Shown here one piece after another: positions 1 through 62,030 of a stretch of 64,000 nucleotides of DNA (its first letter is position 1; each line of letters starts with the position of its first letter). The notes beneath the pieces are model-generated. The model saw nothing but the letters and a program-made list of their open reading frames with translations. It did no database searches and was not told the DNA's origin. A program made the translations under genes and the position numbers. Source of the stretch: Octopus vulgaris. Lineage: Eukaryota. The DNA lies in contig OX597829.1 of the NCBI GenBank assembly GCA_951406725.2, positions 23,994,001 through 24,058,000 of the forward strand. The letters are read 5' to 3'.

Positions 1-334
1 ATAAAGCTGAAAACCAAATCTGATGTGAAAAGTACAATTGGATCGTATGTGCAACAAAAGCCAACGGTCATTAAGGAACCGAAACCTGTGAAAGAAATAC
101 CCAAAGTTACACATATTCCTCAGCCTGACTATAGTAAAGTAAAAAGCAAACTGTTTTCTGCCACTGCAAGTACGTCTACCAAACAGAAAATATCTTTAAA
201 AGCAACTAACAAAGTGACAAATAATTTGAAGACTAGACGAGATTCCACTAAATCTGTTGCTAGCAGCACTTCGACCCTAGAGTGTTCTAGTGACCATCAG
301 TCCGAAGACAAAGTAAAGAAAGAAAAAGAAAAAG
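1..334 (+). CDS. Internal coding exon (5' end outside window) of a basic, low-complexity, probable microtubule-associated (tau/MAP2/MAP4-like) protein
   Basis: Open frame from base 1 (IKLKTKSDVKSTIGSYVQQKP...PDYSKVKSKLF...VKKEKEK). Ends at donor AAG|GTATGA (GT at 335-336, phase 1), after which the sequence turns T-rich. KSDVKSTIGS and PDYSKVKSKL resemble the tau/MAP2 motif PDLKNVKSKIGS, so the family call is inference. Confidence 0.8.
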
Positions 335-949
335 GTATGAACTTTTCTTTTTGCTCTTCTTTTACTTCACCTCTAATCAACTTTGCCTGTATTAATAATT
401 TTTTTTTATTTTTTTTATTTTTTGTTTTTTTTAATAATGTAAGTGTAGAAAATAAGTTGCATTTGGTCTTTTTTAGTATTTTCTTTAATCCCTTTCTCCA
501 TGTTCCAATATCACCAGATCTCCTTTGTTCCATACTAAATAAGTGTAATATAAGCAAAGGTTGGGGTAATTGTAATTAATAAAATTCCACTTCCTTGAAA
601 GATATTGTCCTTATACTAAATTGAAACTAATCGTTATAACAGACATATACAGCATCTTGCGTACAGAAAGCAATTAAGCTCCTGGATGAATTCATCTTAG
701 TTTCAACTCTTGGTAGGAGCTTTTTCTCTTCCCTAACATCAAGCCACTTAAGAAAACGCATTGTCTCAGCCTCCTCATTTTGTGAGACAATAGTTGCAGC
801 CCATTTTGAATCTGTCTCTGATTTCCTTAGACAGGCTTTGAACCAAAGGCTGACATGAGACAATAACAAGGTAGAAAATTATAATATAAATTTTTATTAG
901 CCTAATAATAATAATAATAATAATAATAAAACATTGTGTGCACTACAAC

Positions 950-1225
950 TCATCTAAAGTGTATGTATAGTACATAGGGTAATGTACAAGCGTCAGGAAA
1001 AGAACAGTGCATGAATCATGACATACACATATGTGTATGAGTATGGAAGGGGGACAATCAGGTGTAGTTTTGGCGGATTTCGGAAAGCATGAGGGCCTTA
1101 AAGGATGCAGTGTCATGGCAGTCAACAACTGACGCAGGCAGTTTGTTCCACGCTTCAGCAACTCTGAGCGTGAAAAAATGTTTCCGAAAGTCATGGGAGC
1201 TGTGCTGTTTTCTGACTTTGTAAAG
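950..1225 (-). mobile_element. CR1/L2-type LINE 3' fragment
   Basis: Minus ORF HSSHDFRKHFFTLRVAEAWNKLPASVV...FK matches the CR1-clade ORF2 C-terminal motif (FFxxRVxxxWNxLP). Confidence 0.75.
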
Positions 1226-1821
1226 AGTCAAAAGTATCATTAGTATTTAAAACATGTCTCTTTATTAGTTGGGGGGGGGGGGGTCATACCACACCTCTTT
1301 ATTAGTCAAATGAAAGAAGTTATTTGTAGTTACACTGCCTACACCACCAATCTATTATCTTCAGGATCTCTGAGATAAGAAAATGGTAATAACTGCAAAA
1401 ATAGTGTGATGAAATATTCAATTTAAGCTTTTGTTAATGAATGTTTTAGATGTAAGGGAAATAGGATTGAAGAAAACATCAGCATCTCAAAGGATTGCAT
1501 GAAAGATTTATGAGCCAATGAGGGTGCTTCTGTGCAGTTTCTCCACCTGCTAGACATAGAAGTTAAATTTCCGTCAGATATACAGAGTCTTAAGAATAAA
1601 GGGTTCAATGAACACTCTTGTCTTAGATACACTATTCCTGAACGTCAGGTGGTGATCATAGCTCTTCATTCTCAGTTTGATTAATGAGGGCAAATCTGGA
1701 TCTAAGCAACAACATCAAAACAGTTTGTCAGTCATTCCTGCTGCAGCAGTCTTCTGGAATTAAAATAGCAAAATGTGTAACTCAAATCCTAAGCAGCCAT
1801 GGGTAATGACCTATAGTTATT

Positions 1822-2000
1822 CATCATCATTATCATCATCATTTAATGTCTGTTGTCCACGTTGACATGGGCTGAATAGTATGACCAGAGCTGGCAAGCT
1901 GGTGGGTTTTACATCAGACTCCAGTTTGATTTGACATGGTTTCTATGGCTGGATGCCCTTCCTAATGCCAACCACTTTACAAAGTGTGCTGGGTACTCCT
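1822..2000 (-). mobile_element. SINE or LINE-tail family with (ATG)n tail (RTE-tail-like)
   Basis: (TCA)n, then tttaatgtc...ggatgcccttcctaatgccaacc. The same family recurs at about 28547-28825, 32280-32430, 37170-37260, 41098-41430 and 44438-44690. Confidence 0.65.
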
Positions 2001-2704
2001 ACATAGCATCACACAGGCACTTTTATGTGATACCACACAGGTACTTTTACATGGCACCATATGGGCACTTTTATATGATGCTGCATTGGCACTTCCACTA
2101 GTGCTGTACGCCACCAGAAGGATCAGTCTTAACACTTCTGTTGCAGAGTACAGGTCTTCTTGAGTACAGCCAGGTAGGTGCCAGGTATCTCAGTCCTTTA
2201 TCAATTCACCTGAAAGGTTCACCTTACTGAGGCCATTCTTCAGTACTTATACATAGGTACACAGCTTATCAACCATTCAGTGGTTACTTTTGTGTTGTGC
2301 TATTCGAGAGCCTGTCCATGCTGTATCTTTTTTGCTGATCTTTTTTTTTTTGTTGTTGTTCTTACTTACTAGTCATCGTTAACCAAACAACCCTAATATC
2401 AAAAATATCTCAGCCATGACCACCCTGTACTTCCTTTTCTAAGGCAGTCGGATGTTATTCAACAGAGACTGGCTGTTATTTCTAGTAGGTCAAACAGCCT
2501 CATAGAAGCTCCTTCGTTTGTTCATCTTCATGTTAGTTCTGACTAAATGTACATGTAATCAAAGCCTTCCCAACAACGACTATCCCATCATGGATATCTA
2601 GAACTATATTATCCAGTTTGACCTTTATCCAAGCAAGTAGATGTGACTCAAAGATTTGGTTGCTATTTCTAATATATTGAATAACTATATATATATATAT
2701 ATTA

Positions 2705-2900
2705 AAAGTGGGAAAGGCTGGTTTATGGGATTACCCTGGGTTTATCATCTACAAAGAGTTTAGCTTTATGGCATATCATCAGACCCCAAAACAGGTCTTG
2801 TAGCCAACAGGTTTTGGGGTCTTATGATACACCATAAAGCTAAACCCTTTATAGACAGGAAACCCAGGATAATCCCATAAACCAGCCTTCCCCACTTTTG
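2705..2900. repeat. About 195-bp imperfect foldback palindrome (MITE-like or Penelope-derived)
   Basis: aaaagtgggaaaggctggtttatgggatta...taatcccataaaccagccttccccactttt; arms about 90 bp; TA-rich flanks. Confidence 0.8.
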
Positions 2901-3237
2901 ATATATACTGCTCTATATCTTAGAGTGTGCTTCTTCTCCACGTTTATTTTCTACAAACAATATATGTTTTTTTTTTCTTTTCAAAATGTAACCACATGTG
3001 AATCATTGGCGATTTTTTTTTTTTTTTCCCTTCATCTTCCTCTTCTATTGGGCTTTCCTCTTTCTCCTGTTTCTGAAGCAGAGCTTTGCTCGAAACATAA
3101 AACCACCTTTCTTTCCTTCCCCAAGCATCTGCTAATACTTTACATATACCATGTCCTTGTGTTGTTGTTTGTTTTTGTTTTTTTTTTTTTGTTTGCTCTT
3201 CATTTTTGGGGATTTATATATATATACATATATATAT

Positions 3238-3271
<34 letters not shown>

Positions 3272-3533
3272 GCATATAGTGTCCCTCTTTAATTCCTTCA
3301 TATGCAATATTCAGTAGCATGGCATGTCTTGTTTGCCTTTGTTTGAATATTTTTTATTTGTTTATTGAAGGAGTAGGTAACAAGGACTGATTGGTTATAG
3401 AGCAGATGTAACTCATGATAAGTGAGGGCTTACTAGAAGGGATGAGTAATTGACTAAATACATAAAATATATATATTAGTGAACAAATGTCGAAAATAAG
3501 ATAAGGGGTGATGTACTGAATGCTATGGTGGTG

Positions 3534-3569
<36 letters not shown>

Positions 3570-3668
3570 GAGCAGAGTAACAATCCTTGTGCATTTTAAT
3601 TTGCTTAAAATAAATTAAATTGATCCAAGGGAAATAATCTATGATGTTATATATATATATATATATAT

Positions 3669-3868
3669 TTCTTTACTACCCACAAGGGGCTAAACACAGA
3701 GGGGACAAACAACGACAGACAAAGGGATTAAGTCGATTACATCGACCCCAGTGAACTAGTACTTAATTTATCGACCCCGAAAGGATGAAAGGCAAAGTCG
3801 ACCTCGGCGGAATTTGAACTCAGAACGTAGTGGCAGACAAAATACCGCTAAGCATTTCGCCCGGCGTG

Positions 3869-3871
<3 letters not shown>
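3669..3871 (-). mobile_element. tRNA-derived SINE, family with the gcctttcatcctttcggggtcgataaa core (OK/Meta-like)
   Basis: Reverse complement of the consensus gagctggcagaaacgttagc...gagttcaaattccgccgaggtcgactttgcctttcatcc. Many copies in the window. Confidence 0.8.
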
Positions 3872-3919
<48 letters not shown>

Positions 3920-4714
3920 ATGATGTAGTTAGCAGTTCTTGATTGAAATTTCTCTTGACTGAAAGAAGAAAAGCAAACCTGGTGGCAAATGTTAAAAACT
4001 CTTAAAGGTAAGGGAGATAATTTCACGAATATAAAAATTTTTCCTGTTAAAATTTATATAACAAAGGGAAGGATAGATTAGTTTTCATTTACAGACATGG
4101 GAAAAATTTAGGCCAACTGCATCTGAGGGACAGGGAATGATATATGGTGGTTGCTTAATATATATTTAAGATAGATGGTGAAAAATAAGTAAGTTGTTCT
4201 TGTTGTTTTGCATTAGGTCACATCCAATCAAACAGATTGATGGCTAAAAGGCATTTCTATAGTGACCGTCCAGTCTTCTTATGGTTATCTAGGCCTACAT
4301 TATCTAATAGGTCACTTTTTTTTTATTGAAATTTGCTTTTTAGTTAGAGAAAAAAACAAAAGCATAGCAGCGGGTATTAGCTAATGTCTGTTAGAAGAGG
4401 GGAGATAATTACAAGAAAGACAGTGGTGTGAGATTTGGCTGCTGTTATTTCTAGCAGTTACGGCTGCTAGGTGGAGACTCCTTCAAATTAAATATAATAG
4501 ATATGGAATATCATTCACATACACAAGTGCCAGTCCTGGTGTTGTTAAGTACCCTGGCCAAATTTCAGTACCCTTACATGTATAATTTGACATATTATTT
4601 TTGACTAGGAGCAAAAACTTACAAATGTTACAAATAAAGTATTTATTACAATTTATTAAAAGTTAGAAATAAATTGTTTTATTCTATTTTATTATTTTTC
4701 AAATTTTTTATCCC

Positions 4715-4960
4715 CGAAAATTTAGAAATAGCAGCCAAAGACAGCTTATTCCTTTCAACTACAGAAATTACTCCACAGTTATTTTTCTTCTTTTGCCTCT
4801 GTGAGTTACAAGTATTGTTATCTGTGGAGTAATTTCTGTAGTTAAAAGGAATTAAGCTGTCTTTGGCTGCTATTTCTAAATTTTCCATGTTGCTTAACCC
4901 TTTATTATATTTATATATAAAAAGACTTTTTGTAAAAGTTCCTACCAATAACGGTTCTCT
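4715..4960. repeat. Truncated duplicate of the foldback element at 6055-6360, including its right flank
   Basis: Near-identical to about 6096-6360, including aaagacttttt...cctaccaataacggttctct. Confidence 0.8.
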
Positions 4961-6000
4961 TTTGAACAATTCTACTACTGCTGTCTGAAAATAGCTTATC
5001 AAGGCATGGCTGTATAGCAAGGAATTTGCTTCCCAATTGCATTATTCCAGGTTCATTTCCACTGTGTGGCACATTGGGCAGGTGTCTTCTGCTGTATCCA
5101 TGGGACAATCAAAGCCTTGTGACTGGATTTGGTAGACAGAAACCAAATGAGGCTTGTCGTGTGTGTGTGTGTGTGTGCGTGCATTATTGTATCCTTGCCT
5201 TGATATCAGGTGATAGTTGTGAGTATCATCATGCAAGTGGTGTCCATCATTTCCAACAGAGAGCATATGAAGTATTTTGCCCAGATTGATAATCCCTCAC
5301 TATTAGCTGTGTGTGTGTACACAACAGGCTTCCACATAGTGTCTGTCTACCAAATCTGCTATAGTAGAAGGCACTTAAGGTGTCATGCAGTGGAACTGAA
5401 CTCAAAGCCACATGATTGTTACAGAGCAAGGCTTTTTTGTACATTTTATTTTTTTCAGTCAATTTGTTTTGTTTCTGGGGGTTTTTTTTTTACAATTGTT
5501 GTCTTTATTAATCTATTAGGAGCTATTATTATAAATTAATGATACCTCACAACTTCCAATAATCACTATGAGTATCTTAGCTTAACAACAAAATGTCAGC
5601 AAACATAGTATTGCCAACATAGCAACCATCGGCTCACTGGTGCATGAACTGATGTATTTTGTGTGCGTGTGTATTTTCCTTGCAATGTGTTTTGTCATAC
5701 ATCAGTTTCCATACTGCAGAAGCAAAGATGGTGCTTATATTTAATTCTTTTTTGATCACTTAAATCAGTCATCATTTTGTCATCAACTTTGATGACTCAT
5801 CAGTCTGTATACACTTTGCTTGCACCTTTTTAACTATCATATTGGCTGAAACAACATTTAGAGAACGTGTTGCTTAACATCATTTACTAAAACTTGTCAG
5901 AAACAATAACAATTTCAGGTACGATGGATAAATTATGAAGCACTCATAAATTTTAAGGTATTTCCACTACATGAAGTTACATGAATTCTAATGAATGCAT

Positions 6001-6054
<54 letters not shown>

Positions 6055-6056
<2 letters not shown>

Positions 6057-6308
6057 AATTAAGGGTTAAGCAACAAGTTGTGCTTAACCACATACCGAAA
6101 ATTTAGAAATAGCAGCCAAAGACAGCTTATTCCTTTCAACTACAGAAATTACTCCACAGTTATTTTTCTTCTTTTGCCTCTGTGAGTTACAAGTATTGTT
6201 ATCTGTGGAGTAATTTCTGTAGTTAAAAGGAATTAAGCTGTCTTTGGCTGCTATTTCTAAATTTTCCGTATGTGGTTACGGAAAATTTGTTGCTTAACCC
6301 TTAATTAT
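6055..6308. mobile_element. Foldback/MITE-like element with about 105-bp inverted arms
   Basis: ataattaagggttaagcaac...gttgcttaacccttaattat; inner arms gaaatagcagccaaagacagctta / taagctgtctttggctgctatttc; follows a (TA)n tract. Confidence 0.75.
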
Positions 6309-6425
6309 ATTTATATATAAAAAGACTTTTCGTAAAAGTTCCTACCAATAACGGTTCTCTTTACATACCGAAACTACTCAGTAAAATTTATTAATTTTAA
6401 ATTAATAATTATTTACCCTTATATT

Positions 6426-6459
<34 letters not shown>

Positions 6460-6646
6460 TGCTTATGCTTACATAAATTCCTTTGAATATGATGGACACC
6501 TATACTTTGTGTGAGGGGGTGGATATATACACACACATTTATAGGAATATGATAAAAAATCAAGGCTGTACAGATATTAGAGCATTTATAGATAGATATA
6601 AATACACACACATATGTATGTATATATATATATATACACACACACA

Positions 6647-6687
<41 letters not shown>

Positions 6688-7189
6688 CTCAAAATTAAGT
6701 TGAGTCACTTCTTATATTAACTCTTACTATATTAACTTATATGATTTTTAATATTTAGGCTATATAATTTTGAATATATTTTTGACTACAATGTCCTTTA
6801 TAAGTCTTTATAATTTTATATATACATATATTTAATGAAAAGAAGAAGGCAAAATTAAATTCTTTAACAATTGTTGCTGTACCAGCTCTACTTGCAACGC
6901 CTGTTTATGCAAAAATTCAAAATGAAAATTTATTTAATGTTTGCAGCCTTAGACATTAGAGAGGTACTCTATCAGACTTGCATCAAAGGTGTGTTGTCAC
7001 ATTGTGTGTCTTCCAGACCTTGCTTTATGACTTATATTGGGAGGAAACAAAGAAAAAGGGGGAAATAGCAAGTGTGGACATGGGATGAGTAAATGGGGTA
7101 GAGATTATATAGGGGTGGGGGAATCAAGAGGAAGGATACGCAGAAGAAGGAGAAGGATATATATATATATATGTATTCTCTATTATTAA

Positions 7190-7401
7190 CCCTTTCATTA
7201 CCAACCCGGCTGAAACCGGCCCTGGCTCTGAGTACAAATGTCTTGTTTTCATAAGTTTTGAATTAAAATCTTCCTTAGTCACAATTTACATTCCTAACAC
7301 TAGCTGAATGATAATCAAGTTATTTTACTAAATTATTTGTTATATTTAAAATAATTGAGAGAAACACAGAGCATCTCAAAATAAATACAGTAACGAAAGG
7401 G
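7190..7401 (+). mobile_element. piggyBac-type MITE, copy 1
   Basis: TTAA|CCCTTTCATTAC...GTAACGAAAGGG|TTAA: TTAA target duplication with CCCT...AGGG termini. Confidence 0.85.
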
Positions 7402-7741
7402 TTAAGCTATATAATTTTTAGTTTGCATTTATCACAAATGATTTACATATTTGATAAATATTTATTACAATTTCCTATCATCTCTCTATTATATATTTAT
7501 TACAGTTGATTGTCATTTTATATGAAAAAAATTCTTTTGTCTTTTTATGACATTTTAATGTAACAGTAGACTCACTGCCATCATATGATGTCTATAACTA
7601 TAATTGATGTCCTTTCCTTGCTAAAAATACAGAATTCAACTTTGTATCTTTTTATATCAGTACATATATATACATATATACAGAAAACAATTTCTCTCCC
7701 CTCACTCCATTTGTTTCACATTTCTGTATGTGTACTTTTTA

Positions 7742-7963
7742 TAAGAAACACACAAAAAAACTGTTAGATTCACTTCAACAATTAAATTTAATTTGTCAAA
7801 ATATTTTCATTGCTTTGAGTCCGCGACCTGTTCATTGACAAAATTCCGTGCTGCAGCACGGAATTTTGTCAGCGAACAGGTTGTGGCCTCAAAGCAACGA
7901 AAATATTTTGACAAATTAAATTTAAATGTTGAAGTGAATCTAACAGCTTTTGTGTGTTTCTTA
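7742..7963. mobile_element. About 220-bp palindromic foldback MITE
   Basis: taagaaacacacaaaa...ttttgtgtgtttctta, self-complementary through the centre gtgctgcagcac. It gives near-identical ORFs on both strands in the track. Confidence 0.85.
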
Positions 7964-8319
7964 AATGGCTTATAAACACCTTCCATGCTGCAATTGTTTT
8001 TGTTCCAGCACACGATCTCAGATCAGAACACTTGCTATGCAAGTACATCTCCGTAATACTTTTTATATTTTTAGTAATATGATCATATCAATCTGTTTAG
8101 TTTTGCATTCAATGATTTCTACATATCTTGATGTTTTTTTTTTTTGTTTCACTTGTCTTTTAAATATGATTCTCATTATATTGCAGTTTATCTTTCCTTT
8201 ACTTATATGCTGGGTGTTTGGGTTATATTTGACAGTTTGCATAAAAGAGAAATAAATCACAATATTCCATCCAAGAATAAAAATATTTTTTAAATCAAAA
8301 AAGTACAACTAGATTATGA

Positions 8320-14944: not shown

Positions 14945-15760
14945 ATCACAAGTTTTGTTTGAGCTCCTGGAGTCTTGCATGCGTAGCGGGCTCACTACCT
15001 GCAGCCTACAGTACCATGCTATTTATTCTTTTCAGCTATCTAATACTTTCCTGATTATTCTGGCCGTGCCAAGGAGGAAAACCTTTTGTGACAGTTCTGC
15101 TGGGCATTCTATTCCAATTTCATTTATATTCTTCTTGATGCCTTCTGATACTGTTCCCAAGGACCCAACAATAATTGGCACTATCTTCACTGTCTTCATT
15201 TTCCATAACCAGGCTATTTCATACTTAAGAGGGTTGTATCTATCTTTACCTCTTCTTTCTTGACTATTCATGAGTCAAAGGGGCATGCAACATCAACTAT
15301 ATAGCATATGTTGTGCACCCCATCCACCATCACTAGTTCTGGTCTGTTATGCTCTAGCACCTGATCTGTTTAGAATGGGAAATCCCAGATGTTTTTGCTA
15401 GTCTCCAACTCTGCCACTCTCTGCAGTTTGTGCTCATACCACATCTTGCCTCTCTCTAGCCCCCACTTTTCGTGCAGTTTCCAATGTAACACTTTTGCTA
15501 CCTGGTCATGCCACCATAACTTGTAGTGGTGGTTTTGGGCAAGTCTAGGACATTTGTTTGTGATATGGACAATGGTTTCATCCACTCTATTGCAGATGTG
15601 GCACAGTGGAGACACTTGCTCATTCCTCGGGTTGACCCTTCAGTTCAAGGCCAAAGCTTGGTCCTGCACTGCCAGTATAGTGCTCTCAGTCTCTTTTTTT
15701 TAGGGTTCCTTTCATTAGCCATTCCCACCTATTTTTTTCCAATGACTTCTGTTGTAGATA
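14945..15760 (-). mobile_element. Decayed RLE-type non-LTR retrotransposon (R4/NeSL-like) 3' part
   Basis: CCHC knuckle CHICNRVDETIVHITNKC, HDQVAKVLHWKL, then restriction-like endonuclease tail RYNPLKYEIAWLWKMKTVKIVPIIVGSLG; frameshifted. Confidence 0.75.
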
Positions 15761-26780: not shown

Positions 26781-26949
26781 CAGATAACATAACCTAATTC
26801 AGGGGTCACTTTTTAATTTTTTTTTTTTTTTTTTGTAATTACTAAAATCTGAAAATATTAAAAATTATACTGATCAGGTTCCTACTTTAATTATCTCTTC
26901 TGTCATGTCACTTGTTTTAATGTGGTTTTGGATTCAGTACTATATATAT

Positions 26950-27165
26950 ATAAAGTTAAACCAAACAAGAAAGCAAAAACAAAAAAACAACAACGCAAGG
27001 ACGTGGAACAAATAAAGTATTATTGGACGCTCAGGAAAGAAGGGAAGAAGGAGGGTTTGACATTTCGAGCGGAGCTCTTCGTCGGAAACATAGGAGAAGG
27101 AAAGATCCCGAGAAGGGAAGACAGGGGAAAATAATCGCTAGTGATACAGACGAGGTCACATGTAG
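26950..27165 (-). mobile_element. Short element with a minimal hammerhead-like motif (Penelope-related)
   Basis: Minus 27089-27055 reads GTTT CCGACGA A GAGC TCC GCTC GAAA TGTC AAAC; the element abuts (TA)n. Confidence 0.5.
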
Positions 27166-38895: not shown

Positions 38896-38903
38896 TCTCA
38901 GCC

Positions 38904-39051
38904 AAAACAGTCCGACAAACGAGAACATGAAACTCTGAGTTACAGTTTTTGTGATGTCTTTGCAGCTTTATTAATAAAGCATACTACTCTACCTCTGGTA
39001 TTTGAGTACTGTTTTTAGCACTTTGTTTCACATTTATGTGCTTACTCTGGT
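38904..39051 (+). mobile_element. About 150-bp hammerhead-like element, family H copy 1
   Basis: aaaacagt CCGACAA acgagaacat GAAAC tctga GTT acagttttt, followed by a tail shared with 60124-60273 (minus); flanked by (TG)n. Confidence 0.55.
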
Positions 39052-44438: not shown

Positions 44439-45334
44439 CATCATCATAATCATTTAACGTCCGTTTTCCATGCTAGTTGGACAATTTGACTGACATCTGG
44501 TGAACCAGATGGCTGCACCAGACTCCAACCTAGTCTGGCAAGATTTCTACAGTTGGATGCCATTCCTAATGCCAACCACTCCGAGAGTGTAATGGGTGCT
44601 TTTATGTGCCACCGGCACAAGGGCCGGTCAGGCAGTACTGGCAACGGCCATGCTCAAATGGTGCCTTTTATGTGCCACCTGCACAGGAGGAATAAAAATA
44701 GACCTGGTGTGTTTTAAATATGTTTTTAAGCCAAGACAATGTGAGTTATAAAAATTAATAGCACAGTTCAATGGTATGTACTTTTACCTGATACGTCTAT
44801 GTTTCGGGGTTAACACCCCTTTTTCAGGAAATCTTTAGAAGAAGGTGTTATTAATTTTATAACTTGCATTGTTTTGGCTTAAAAACATATCAAACATATC
44901 TTGCAAACTATACACCTTTATTATATATATATAATCTGCATTCATAACAACTCAAGTTACTAACTGCAGGCTATAAAGAAATATTTGTGGTGGATAATTG
45001 ATCTTCTATATGGGAAAACCTCACAACCCTCACCAACAAATTATTATTGTTCCTGAATGTTGTTACTACAGACTGCTCAAAGCTTACAAATTTCCTACAC
45101 TTAGATCCTCACATTTTACAATTACATATTAATATGTATGTATGCATGCATTATCATCATTATTTAATGTTCATTTTCCATGATAGATTTAATTGAGGCA
45201 CATGTTTTTCTGGTTGGATGCTCTTCTGTCATCACCTATTTCCAAGTAAGGTAATATTTTTCACATTGCTAGACATTTTCTTCATGGAAGACTGCAAATG
45301 AACAACCTTGCGTATATGACCATCTTGTAATGGT

Positions 45335-46020
45335 CGCTATACACACGCTATACACACGCCAAGAGTGTCGCCTAAACATCTTTCACCTGCGCTGCCTCCG
45401 AAAAATCCTCCACATCAAATGGCAGAATCATATCCCCAACAAAGATGTCCTCAGGCAAGCAGGAATACCAAGCATGTTTGCACTCCTCACACAAAGACGT
45501 ATGAGATGGCTTGGGCATGTTAGCCGTATGAAAGATGGCAGAATCCCCAAGGACATACTCTACGGAGAGCTTGCTAGGGGTACTAGGTCTGTGGGTAGAC
45601 CGATCTTACGTTACAAGGATGTTTGCAAAAGGGATATGAAGGCCTGCAACATCAACATTAGCGGTTGGGAGGCAGTCGCCGGCAACCGTGGAGAATGGCG
45701 ACGTACAGTAAAAGAGGGTATACAAAGGAGTGACAGAAAGAGAGAGGAGAAATGGAAAGAAAGGAAGTGACATAAACAAGAGACCATGGCACTACAACCA
45801 GCCAGGAACAGTCTTCGCTACATTTGCAGTACCTGCCAGAGGGAGTGTTTGTCCAGGATAGGACTACACAGCCACAGCAAGAAATGTATCAGGAAATAAA
45901 ATATAACAGCCGGACTAGACCTAGAAAAAAAAAAAAAAAAAAAAGCGCAACTCCATTGTCTCCCGAGACAGAAAGGATGCCAATACAATACAATACAATA
46001 CAATACAATACAATACAATG
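45335..46020 (+). mobile_element. RTE-clade LINE 3' end with (CAATA)n tail
   Basis: ORF FHLRCLRKILHIKWQ...RRMRWLGHVSRMKDGRIPKDILYGEL...GRPILRYKDVCKRDMK, then a C2H2-like C-terminus and caatacaatacaata. Confidence 0.9.
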
Positions 46021-49508: not shown

Positions 49509-49769
49509 GGTTCAAATTTATAGAAAAAACAGAAGACAATGACAGGTGTAGGAACAACAAGTAAGAGTATTAGTTTGATGCTCGGGAAAAATGGAAGAGG
49601 CATTTACGTCTCAAGCCTACACTCTAACAGAAAGGAATGAGAGGAAATAATGGAGAGGGAATGAAAAATGCATGTAGAGTTTGAAAGTCCAACATGGTAA
49701 AAGGCTGGGGGCGGGGAAGAGGTTGAATGAAAGGGAGATAATAATGGTGGTGATCCCAACAAGCTAAGG

Positions 49770-49924
49770 TGTGCAAGTGAGTCTGACATGTGTGTGTGTT
49801 GGGTGTAGCAGTTGTATGCTTTTTCGGGTGCTGTGTGCACATGTGTGTGTGTGTGTGTCTCTCTGACCCAATAATGTGTATAGTGTATGTATGTGAGCAA
49901 AAGTTATCTTTGCCTCTGTGTGTA

Positions 49925-49974
<50 letters not shown>

Positions 49975-50123
49975 GAGGCAAAGATAACTTTTGCTCACAT
50001 ACATACACTATACACATTATTGGGTCAGAGAGACACACACACACACACACATGTGCACACAGCACCCGAAAAAGCATACAACTGCTACACCCAACACACA
50101 CACATGTCAGACTCACTTGCACA
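49770..50123. repeat. 354-bp near-perfect palindrome centred on (TA)n
   Basis: tgtgcaagtgagtctgacatg...ctttgcctctgtg / cacagaggcaaag...catgtcagactcacttgcaca. Confidence 0.92.
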
Positions 50124-50495
50124 GTATATATATATACTCTTGTTTCAGTCATTTGACTGTGGCTATGCTGGAGCACCGCCTTTAGTCAAACAAATCAATC
50201 CCAGGACTTATTCTATCAGTCTCTTCTGCCAAACCACTAAGTTACAGGGACGTAAACACACCAGCATCAGTTGTCAAGTGATGTTGGGGGGACAAACAAA
50301 GATACACAAACATACATATATACATATATATACGATGTGCTTCTTTCAGTTTCCATTTACCAAGTCCAGTCACAAGATTTTGGTCGACCTGAGGCTATAG
50401 TAGAAGACACTTGCCCAAAGGTGCCATGCAGTGGGGCTGAACAAAAAAACCATGTGGTCGGTAAGCAAGCTACTTACCACACAGCCACACCTGCG

Positions 50496-60073: not shown

Positions 60074-60126
<53 letters not shown>

Positions 60127-62030
60127 GGAGTAAGCACATAAATGTGAAACAAGGTGGAAAAAAGAGTACTCAAATACCAGAAGCAGAGTAATATGCTTTA
60201 TTTAAAAGCAGCAGAAATATAACAAAATCTGTTACTCAGAGTTCCAAGTTCCCGATCGTCGGACAGTTTTGTTATAAAAAAAAAAAAGATTATTATTAAG
60301 AGAACAAGCTAGAAGAATCATCAACAAAACTGTCTGACAAACGGGAACGTGGAACTCTGAGTAACAGCTTTTATATTTCTGCTGCTTTTAAATAAAGTGT
60401 ATATATATATGATTTTAACTTTTTCAGTGTGAGATTACATTTCAAAGAAAAAAAACATGGTAAAATTTTGAAGAGATTCTTATTGTTTGTTTCTTTTTTT
60501 TTTTTTTTTCCTAATAAGGCTTGGGTAGTTGATGAGCCCTTCCACCAAATCATCTTTAAAGAAAGATATTGAAGAAATCTAAGTATGCATACATACATGC
60601 ATCATACATCCATTCATTCATTTTGTGTCTGTGCTTGTCCCCAGCCACTCCTTCACAACCAGTTCAGCAAAAGAGACCATTAGAATTAGTACCAGGGTTT
60701 AAAGAATGAAAATAAATACCCAGCATGGACACAGTCTAATGACTGAAATGATAAAGTAAGTGGATAGAGATAGATATGTAGGTAGATAGCTAGATAGACA
60801 GTCAGACACAGAGAGATATATGTTGACAGATGATGGATAGGTAGGTAGGTAGCAGGCAGACAAATAGACAGACAGACAAATATGTTGTACTAAATAAGTA
60901 AGGAGAGGTTCCACTCCTCTGGGCTTTGGCCATTATTTTGTCTTTAATGCTAAGCATGGTATTTTACAGTTCTTTTAATTAAAAGATGTGGTCTCTATTT
61001 TTAAAGAGAGTGAGTCTGTTGTGGGAGCGTTTGCTGTTACACTGAGCAGGTCAAGTCACTACATAGAAACTTTTTATGTGGCATCCATTGAGGTGAGGGA
61101 TGTGGGTGATACATTAAACTGGTCAACTGACCACATAGCTTCTTCTTCCTCTCTGCCCTCCTCTCCCCCTCTTGTTCATTTTCTTCTAATTTAACTAAGA
61201 ATCTGGGTGTTAGTCACCAAACTTCAAGACAACAATCCTCAGCTACCTAAAGTGGCATGTAAAAGTTTTATAATAATGATGATAATAATAATAATCCTTC
61301 CTACTAAAGGCGGAAAATTTGAAACTTTGGGCAAGGCCAACATTGCTTCACATCCTTTTGGAGTTAATAAATTAAGTACCAGTGAAATTGACTATCCCCC
61401 ACCCTGAAATTCCAGGTCTTTTGCCTATAGTAGAAAGGATTATTATTATTATTATTAACGGCGGTGCATCAGCATGGCCACAGCTCTGAGCCAAAACTAC
61501 AGAAAAGAAATTATTATTATTAAGGCAGTGAACTGGCAGAATTGTTAGCATGCCAGGCAAAATGCTTAGTGGCATTTCATCTGTCTTCATATTCTGAGTT
61601 CAAATTCTGCCGAGGTCAAGTTTGCTTTTCATCCCTTCAGGGTCGATAAAATAAGCACCAGTTGAACACTGAGGTCTATGTAATCGACTCATCTCCTCTC
61701 ACAAAACTGCTACCCTTGAGGCAAAATTTGAAATCATTGATGATGATGTTGTTGTTGTTGTTGTTGGTGTTGTTGTTGTTAAGGCGTCAGGCTGGCAGAA
61801 TCGTTAGCATGACAGCCAAAATGCTTACCAGCATTTCATCTGTCTTACCAGCATTTCATCTGTCTTACCATTCTGATTTCAAATTCTACCAAGGTCGGCT
61901 TTGTGTCCTTGCAGAGTCAATAAATTAAGTACCAGTGAAGCACTGTAGTCAATGTAGTCAACTATTCCCCTTCCCCTAAATTTCAGGCCTTGTACCCTAA
62001 GTAGAAAGGATTATTATTATTATTATTTCG
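57985..62030 (+). mobile_element. Second cluster of + strand OK/Meta-like SINEs with (ATT)n/(ATC)n spacers, plus a nested CORE SINE
   Basis: Repeated ttctgagttcaaattc...aagtaccag...aaaggattattatt units. Confidence 0.7.
60124..60397. mobile_element. Inverted pair of hammerhead-like family H elements
   Basis: Arms 60196-60273 and 60323-60397 are reverse complements, each carrying a CYGACRA...GGAAC TCTGAGTA ACAG motif; abuts (TA)n. Confidence 0.6.

What the first reader, a model, noticed from the sequence alone, without database searches (positions are those of the whole stretch)
60124..60397. Inverted pair of type-I hammerhead-ribozyme-like motifs (family H)
Seen: the + arm reads aaaactgt CTGACAA acg-ggaa-cgt GGAAC tctga GTA acag (60326-60367). 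The minus arm reads aaaactgt CCGACGA tcg-ggaa-ctt GGAAC tctga GTA acag. Together with the copy at 38904 these give the consensus AAAACTGT-CYGACGA-ACG GGAA CGT-GAAA-CTC T GAGTA-ACAGTTTT. That has stem I CTGT/ACAG, a CUGANGA-like core, a 3-bp stem II, GAAA, a palindromic stem III (ACTC/GAGT) and an NUH triplet (GUA). Established: minimal type-I hammerheads with short or palindromic stem III occur in Penelope-like elements and retrozymes, can work as dimers, and PLE ends often form inverted repeats. Inference: this is a short non-autonomous ribozyme-bearing retroelement family. Each copy here has core mutations and may be inactive.
Basis: partly seen in the sequence, partly recalled or inferred. 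Interest (0 to 1): 0.8.

Follow-up and report, generated by a model that had tools for sequence, protein, structure and literature searches.

The report
Head-to-head Penelope retroelement tail ends
These are two damaged, mirror-image copies of the tail end of a very common repeat, likely left by a Penelope-type jumping gene of the Hydra kind; the repeat carries a hammerhead (self-cutting RNA) motif with one unusual core letter and a small hairpin that would mark where copying starts, but cutting is untested and these copies are predicted to be dead.

Summary
Arms at 60126-60273 (-) and 60323-60397 (+) and a third copy at 38903-39051 belong to a repeat found on thousands of contigs in public runs. 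The family majority has a full type I hammerhead layout, but with C instead of U at core position 4 and no compensatory stem changes within the family. Its 4-bp stem I, stem III and cut site are the same letters as in the published coral Hydra-2_Amil Penelope-like element. Copies end next to (TA)n at two fixed points 70 nt apart, the one-sided 'tail' of Penelope-like elements. The short end lies 6 nt before a bulged hairpin whose variable sites are all unpaired (3 of 3, p about 0.01) and which, by eye, recurs in three published Hydra elements. All three window copies have core damage, and the two arms lie on opposite strands, so they cannot form a dimer ribozyme. No coding parent was found; a short non-autonomous family is neither shown nor excluded. 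The scan noted this layout and hairpin before on other DNA. Verdict: known kind of insertion, with two details I did not find in print.

The parts
60076..60125 (.). (TA)n microsatellite next to the long 3' end of arm A; likely the insertion target
   Evidence: Sequence; other copies also run into (TA)n here (loose ends at 60128-60129)
60126..60273 (-). Arm A: hammerhead motif, spacer and 70-nt tail; long 3' end
60126..60195 (-). Tail: present on arm A and copy C, absent from arm B; lies between the two fixed 3' ends
60167..60190 (-). Bulged tail hairpin: 5-bp lower stem, 3-nt 3' bulge, 4-bp upper stem, 3-nt loop; its ACTC starts 43 nt after the predicted cut site and 6 nt after the short end
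   Evidence: Predicted in A and C fragments (z only about -0.9); family variants at 60172, 60179, 60181 all unpaired
60229..60266 (-). Hammerhead motif of arm A: core with C4 intact, but A13 is G and two of three stem II pairs are broken; predicted cut between 60233 and 60232
60274..60322 (.). 49-nt spacer between the facing 5' ends; T-rich on the minus strand, likely upstream element sequence of one or both arms; junction not located
   Evidence: T-rich upstream loose ends in other copies; inference
60323..60397 (+). Arm B: hammerhead motif, ends at the short fixed 3' end, no tail
   Evidence: short end recurs in other copies
60330..60367 (+). Hammerhead motif of arm B: all three stems intact (10 of 10 pairs Watson-Crick), core has U4, G8 to A and A13 to G
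60398..60411 (.). Short TA run after arm B; likely the other side of the target
38903..39051 (+). Copy C: solo copy with tail, between a (GT)n run and a TG/TA run; GAAA intact, G8 to A, damaged stems I and II

Best explanation
The locus holds two mirror-image, shortened copies of one repeat end lying head-to-head between TA runs, one with a 70-letter tail and one without, and it is likely a single old insertion made by a Hydra-type Penelope-like retrotransposon. Inferred steps, by analogy with the lizard element PAc tested in vitro: the element's reverse transcriptase-endonuclease cut both strands of a TA repeat, started copying its RNA on each strand at two fixed internal points (the long end and the short end), both copies stopped just upstream of the hammerhead, and the two were joined 5' to 5'. 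The short start point would be set by the bulged hairpin 6 letters downstream. The family's hammerhead is a minimal type I variant with C at position 4, predicted to be slow and to need a second copy or the element's protein. Both arms share a rare core change (A13 to G, under 2% of family depth), so the template RNA likely already had a dead ribozyme and was copied anyway. Today the locus is likely inert: a read-through RNA would fold into a long hairpin that hides both motifs.
For: Two fixed 3' ends beside (TA)n: long end in 107+41, 72 and 108+46 contigs of three runs, short end in 24 and 38 contigs of two runs (24 of 514 loose-end rows shown), and 4, 31 and 18 contigs running through the arm B junction into (TA)n. 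One contig of run X18 (record 9) is a different head-to-head pair with the same asymmetry: one arm to 60126, the other to 60196. Stem I (4 bp), stem III and cut site equal the Hydra-2_aMil row of File S2; the same stem III occurs in 5 of 26 Hydra rows, U at 11.1 in 18 of 26 (counted by eye). The family's most variable hammerhead site is the loop III letter, which also varies among those rows. Hydra elements insert in (TA)n. Inverted 5'-truncated copies and a one-sided tail are described PLE features. PAc cuts and extends both strands, starts at two sites that delimit the tail, and inserts normally with a dead hammerhead. Stem III self-duplex -7.9 kcal/mol against no monomer fold; whole-locus hairpin -114.5 against -2.1 for the hammerhead fold.
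Against: No coding sequence was tied to this end: no Penelope-type RT or GIY-YIG match in 96 screened frames (91 of the 138 that passed my filter plus 5), no genome held, nothing in three contig collections. The one published octopus Hydra element, Hydra-1_Obim, has a different hammerhead and end, so it is not the parent. All three window copies lose mutual similarity at nearly the same 5' point, and laid depth falls about 10- to 100-fold there, which would also fit a short element. C at position 4 is in 0 of 26 Hydra rows. The tail (70 nt) is longer than the 30-40 bp described. The comparison with published tails was by eye only. Folding z-scores of single copies are weak (-1.65 to +0.42). 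The shared A13 change could come from later gene conversion between the arms.
Confidence: 0.6

Rival explanations
1. One reading: a self-standing short non-coding element (SINE-like or retrozyme-like, possibly circular RNA) that borrows a Hydra-type Penelope enzyme through a shared 3' end. Same insertion mechanism, no coding parent of its own.
For: Thousands of contigs cover the 150 bp and depth drops just upstream of stem I. All three window copies stop resembling each other within 3 nt of the same point. No reading frame found. Non-autonomous PLE partners with shared 3' ends are described in algae.
Against: At least two T-rich upstream sequences recur in other copies (19-37 contigs per row in the DNA-type runs, agreement 0.46-0.56), so the element goes on upstream and the drop may only reflect subfamily differences. 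No head-to-tail tandem in the window; shown loose ends at the long end are (TA)n, not a next unit. Animal retrozymes are tandem arrays.
Confidence: 0.3
2. A DNA-transposon MITE whose terminal inverted repeats only look like a hammerhead.
For: The locus is an inverted pair in TA-rich flanks.
Against: Arms are unequal (148 and 75 nt) with two alternative fixed outer ends; copy C is solo; opposite-strand joints in other copies fall at many places (table 5); the motif matches a published PLE hammerhead row.
Confidence: 0.04
3. The repeat is Penelope-derived but the hammerhead lost all function before the family spread; the fixed C4 is just a founder mutation.
For: Single changes in the CUGA turn gave low activity in a mutagenesis study. 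No compensatory changes inside the family. PAc inserts without ribozyme activity. Both arms carry A13 to G.
Against: Other core letters and the pairs of stems I and III show no family-level variant at 3% while the loop III letter varies. A U4C viroid variant keeps enough activity in vivo. A second, unrelated repeat in the window has the same C4 core. This rival concerns the ribozyme only and is compatible with the first two readings.
Confidence: 0.35

Closest known systems
Hydra clade of Penelope-like elements, closest Hydra-2_Amil and Hydra-2_Ajap (Craig et al. 2021, PMC8557442; section 11, passages, Files S1, S2 and parts of S7 read)
   Same: Same 4-bp stem I (Amil), same stem III with a 1-nt loop, same cut triplet and following four letters; hammerhead about 100 nt from the 3' end; (TA)n targets; by eye a bulged hairpin 43 nt (Amil), 38 nt (Ajap-2) and 47 nt (Crog-1, one mismatch) after the cut site, against 43 nt here.
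   Different: C at core position 4 (0 of 26 Hydra rows); stem II only 3 bp with a GGAA loop; no reading frame linked; not the published octopus member Hydra-1_Obim.
Minimal type I hammerheads of animal PLE pseudo-LTRs (Cervera and de la Pena 2014, PMC4209133; parts 1-2 of 4 read)
   Same: Short stem I, palindromic stem III suited to dimers, mostly single or opposite-strand pairs 100-700 bp apart, linked to truncated PLEs; low activity expected.
   Different: That consensus has a long stem II, an extra letter after A9 and G10.1-C11.1; here stem II is short, A10.1-U11.1, no extra letter, and C4.
PAc, Poseidon element of the green anole (Frangieh et al. 2024, PMC11167929; parts 1-2 of 4 read)
   Same: Two start points that delimit a one-sided tail, AT-rich targets, both strands extended, a stem-loop at the start region, hammerhead dispensable for insertion.
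   Different: Different clade; its starts lie inside an AC-rich stem-loop within the reading frame, whereas here the short end lies 6 nt 5' of a bulged hairpin in non-coding sequence; nothing here is tested biochemically.
Animal non-LTR retrozymes (Cervera and de la Pena 2020, PMC7229834; passages read)
   Same: Small non-coding repeat with a type I hammerhead in an invertebrate genome.
   Different: Retrozymes are head-to-tail arrays of 150-450 bp with mostly canonical hammerheads and circular RNA; no tandem seen here.

Membership tests
Type I hammerhead ribozyme (canonical) | Three stems around the core, ends in stem I | tested here: met
   Arm B forms 4+3+3 Watson-Crick pairs; family majority keeps them
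Type I hammerhead ribozyme (canonical) | Core C3 U4 G5 A6 N7 G8 A9 | tested here: not met
   Family state is C4: no variant at 3% in 4 of 4 runs; other six positions met. Filed as a variant, not canonical
Type I hammerhead ribozyme (canonical) | G12 A13 A14, A15.1-U16.1 pair, H17 | tested here: met
   Family majority (A13 98.4-100%); not met in arms A and B themselves (G13)
Type I hammerhead ribozyme (canonical) | Compensatory changes in stems | tested here: inconclusive
   None inside the family; stem II differs in sequence but pairs across Hydra rows (by eye)
Type I hammerhead ribozyme (canonical) | Self-cleavage at the predicted site | not testable with these tools
   Only contigs were available, which cannot show RNA ends
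Endonuclease-positive Penelope-like element insertion | Inverted 5'-truncated copy and tail on one end only | tested here: met
   Arms A and B; two fixed 3' ends in other copies; second asymmetric pair in run X18
Hydra clade of PLEs | Insertion into (TA)n | tested here: met
   clade trait
Hydra clade of PLEs | Canonical hammerhead near the 3' end | tested here: inconclusive
   Hydra-type stems and position, but C4
Hydra clade of PLEs | Single frame with RT (RWK, DKT motifs) and C-terminal GIY-YIG lacking CCHH; tree position | not testable with these tools
   No linked frame found and no genome held; so 'Hydra-type', membership not claimed
Animal non-LTR retrozyme | Head-to-tail tandem units | tested here: not met
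   0 of 3 window copies in tandem; shown long-end loose letters are (TA)n (only 24 of 514 rows shown)
Animal non-LTR retrozyme | Circular RNA expression | not testable with these tools
   No raw RNA reads offered
DNA-transposon MITE | Symmetric terminal inverted repeats with target duplication | tested here: not met
   Unequal arms, solo copy C, two alternative outer ends

The most novel reading that the evidence does not exclude
The bulged tail hairpin is a conserved start signal for the Hydra-type reverse transcriptase, fixing an internal priming point 6 nt upstream in the way a telomerase RNA stem sets its template boundary, and the family-wide C4 core is a throttled hammerhead that cuts only when the element's protein or a second copy is present, a core that CUGA-based searches miss in many animal repeats.
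Probability: 0.3. Interest if true: 0.6.

Novelty: new variant of a known kind. Interest (0 to 1): 0.32.

Why it matters
As a locus it is ordinary: one of very many fossil Penelope-type ends. Two details could matter. First, how Penelope-like reverse transcriptases, the closest kin of telomerase, choose their internal start points is known from one lizard element only; a 24-nt hairpin at a fixed distance from both the ribozyme and the short end gives a small, directly testable signal in a second clade. Second, a hammerhead family fixed for C4 widens the natural core and would be skipped by descriptors that demand CUGA. Neither detail turned up in my paper searches, which cover open-access papers only; Repbase and Dfam could not be searched.

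Tried and rejected
No whole genome is held, so no genome-wide alignment, copy count or covariance model of the family. Rfam: 0 gathering matches; the E-value matches are microRNA models picking up the fold-back, far below their thresholds. Pattern scans of viral, metagenome and prokaryote contigs: 0 of 5 scans found anything. Earlier-findings look-ups by sequence and by relatives, and two of the word look-ups, were empty. Pfam on 96 frames: 4 weak matches below cut-off, none Penelope-type; no host gene identified, so I cannot say whether the locus is in an intron. Hydra-1_Obim rejected as parent. The O. vulgaris repeat paper does not mention hammerheads or Hydra elements in its text or its one supplement (passages only). 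Dimer action of the two arms rejected (opposite strands). Rows set aside before the hairpin and core counts: arm A's own private changes (60182, 60184, 60244, 60255 and the main change at 60247) and three variants that pass 3% only in run X18 at one contig's depth (60229, 60233, 60237; two are in paired positions). The minor change at 60247 (6.7-12.2%) breaks a stem II pair without compensation and looks like CpG decay; it counts against strict selection on stem II. One search listed no variant rows at arm B's three core departures, probably because contigs fitting both arms were scored on A; unresolved, so I rely. Depth shares are biased: contigs had to be 80% like arm A and rare variants are dropped, so a distant U4 subfamily could be missed. 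Runs guessed to be RNA do not show transcription. The published Hydra tails were compared by eye, with no score.

Full report
What is there. The two arms read as reported. Arm A lies on the minus strand at 60126-60273 and ends in a long (TA)n run; arm B lies on the plus strand at 60323-60397 and is followed by a short TA run; their 5' ends face each other across 49 nt. They align over 78 columns at 89.7%, and a solo copy C at 38903-39051 aligns to A over 149 columns at 84.6%; these three are the only copies in the window. That the host is an octopus-like animal rests on my recall of its repeats and on the scan's own notes for this genome, not on a taxonomy result.

The family. No genome is held, so I used public runs. 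22 of 24 listed runs hold part of the stretch. Eight runs were laid, giving 309-5043 contigs on the whole locus and 97-8203 on arm A alone; these are contig counts, not copy numbers. The spacer is covered in 7 of the 8 runs, under five organism codes, so the insertion is shared and not recent. The majority letters repair arm A's hammerhead: A at position 13 in 98.4-100% of depth, and both broken stem II pairs in 98.0-100% and 86.6-93.3%. No variant reaches 3% at core positions 3-9 in any of the four runs, so the family state is C at position 4; arm B's U4 is then most simply CpG decay (inference). The sites that vary at family level are the single loop III letter (up to 15.6% and 7.1% in the deep runs), the letter just outside the 4-bp stem I, and one CpG site in stem II (6.7-12.2%, uncompensated). 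Three further variants passed 3% only in run X18 at the depth of one contig and were set aside. No compensatory pair was seen. So the hammerhead layout is real at family level, but covariation inside the family is not shown.

What it resembles. An earlier scan note pointed to the Hydra clade, and I checked the source. In File S2 of PMC8557442 the coral element Hydra-2_aMil has the same 4-bp stem I, the same stem III around a 1-nt loop, and the same cut letter; Hydra-2_aJap shares stem III, cut letter and the next four letters. Counted by eye, 5 of 26 Hydra rows have this stem III, 18 of 26 have U at 11.1 as here, and 0 of 26 have C4. Almost all Hydra families insert in (TA)n. The published octopus member Hydra-1_Obim has a different hammerhead and end. 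The clade is defined by its protein, and I found no linked frame, so I call the family Hydra-type and do not file it as a member.

Two fixed ends. Other copies end next to (TA)n at the long end (107+41, 72 and 108+46 contigs in three runs) and at a short end (24 and 38 contigs in two runs; 24 of 514 loose-end rows were shown). In one search, 4, 31 and 18 contigs run through arm B's junction into (TA)n. A C-to-T difference at the first letter past the short end (7.0-17.1%) fits target TA joined directly after position 60196. One contig of run X18 is another head-to-head pair with one arm to 60126 and the other to 60196. The 70 nt between the ends are the one-sided tail of Penelope-like elements, described as 30-40 bp together with an inverted 5'-truncated copy. 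In the lizard element PAc the tail is the stretch between two internal reverse-transcription start sites, both DNA strands are cut and extended, AT-rich DNA is preferred, the hammerhead cuts only with protein, and dead hammerheads insert normally.

The tail hairpin. Fragments of A and C fold into a bulged hairpin at 60167-60190 (the z-scores, about -0.9, are not significant alone). All 3 family-level variable sites in its 24 positions fall among the 6 unpaired ones (p about 0.01; the fold was chosen before the count but on the same family, so the number is a guide). Its ACTC begins 43 nt after the predicted cut site and 6 nt after the short end. Reading File S7 by eye, Hydra-2_Amil, Hydra-2_Ajap and Hydra-1_Crog have a similar bulged stem with different upper-stem letters, 43, 38 and 47 nt after their cut sites; Hydra-1_Amil, Hydra-1_Ajap and Hydra-1_Obim have shorter tails in which I did not see it (3 of 6). 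I noted this before seeing that the scan had reported the same hairpin on other DNA; those notes are not independent proof.

How it likely works. Shown: layout, ends, flanks, family letters. Inferred: a Hydra-type RT-endonuclease cut both strands of a TA repeat, primed on one strand at the long end and on the other at the short end, both copies stopped just upstream of the hammerhead, and they were joined head-to-head. Both arms carry G at position 13, which is under 2% of family depth, so they likely come from one template whose ribozyme was already dead; gene conversion between arms is the alternative. The family hammerhead is predicted to be weak: stem III does not fold alone but forms a -7.9 kcal/mol self-duplex, minimal PLE hammerheads cut poorly even as dimers, single changes in the CUGA turn gave low activity in one mutagenesis study, and a U4C viroid variant is slow in vitro yet supports infection. 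At this locus the arms are on opposite strands, so no dimer can form within one transcript, and a read-through RNA folds at -114.5 kcal/mol into one hairpin, against -2.1 for arm B's hammerhead fold.

What stays open. Whether the parent is a coding element or a short dependent one. The three copies stop resembling each other at nearly the same 5' point and depth falls there, but at least two T-rich upstream sequences recur in other copies, so no fixed 5' end is shown. No tandem array was seen, which speaks against a typical retrozyme.

Novelty and score. The insertion type and the hammerhead type are in print. The family-wide C4 and the tail hairpin were not found in seven paper searches (open-access library only; repeat databases not searchable; supplements of PMC4209133 and PMC11167929 were not opened and may bear on this). 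Papers seen: PMC8557442 (abstract, passages, section 11, supplement parts 2, 52, 53 and searches), PMC4209133 and PMC11167929 (parts 1-2 of 4), PMC3088659 (passages, section 8), PMC13282606 (passages, supplement search), PMC7229834, PMC9901934, PMC6155905, PMC3376415 (passages). New variant of a known kind; interest 0.32.

Noticed in passing
window 26940-27160 (-), core at 27085; related copy 3021-3195 (+): A second, unrelated repeat with a hammerhead-like motif that also has C at core position 4 (4-bp stem I, 4-bp stem II, almost no stem III), ending in (TA)n. It was the only match to my descriptor in the window (1 hit; 3 hits in 20 shuffles). The copy near 3021-3195 is 74% alike and has U4 with other core damage.
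   Followed up: partly
window 60193-60210 (-) and 38965-38980: A second small hairpin or palindrome sits right at the short 3' end, just before the tail hairpin; in copy C it is a perfect 16-bp palindrome.
   Followed up: partly
window 60239-60242 and 60186-60189 (-): The lower stem of the tail hairpin has the same four pairs as hammerhead stem III in this family, so the two could swap partners in one RNA; the published coral and sea-cucumber tails differ at the base pair, so this may be chance.
   Followed up: no
window 45273-45770 (+): 165-codon open frame that looks like the C-terminal end of an RTE-type LINE protein (recalled; no Pfam match).
   Followed up: no
window 15373-15639 (-): Weak zf-RVT match (E 0.001, below cut-off), probably a LINE remnant.
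   Followed up: no
window 49600-50190: An inverted duplication of about 250 bp around 49900 is visible in mirrored frames and in a paired match at 49805-49822 and 50071-50088.
   Followed up: no
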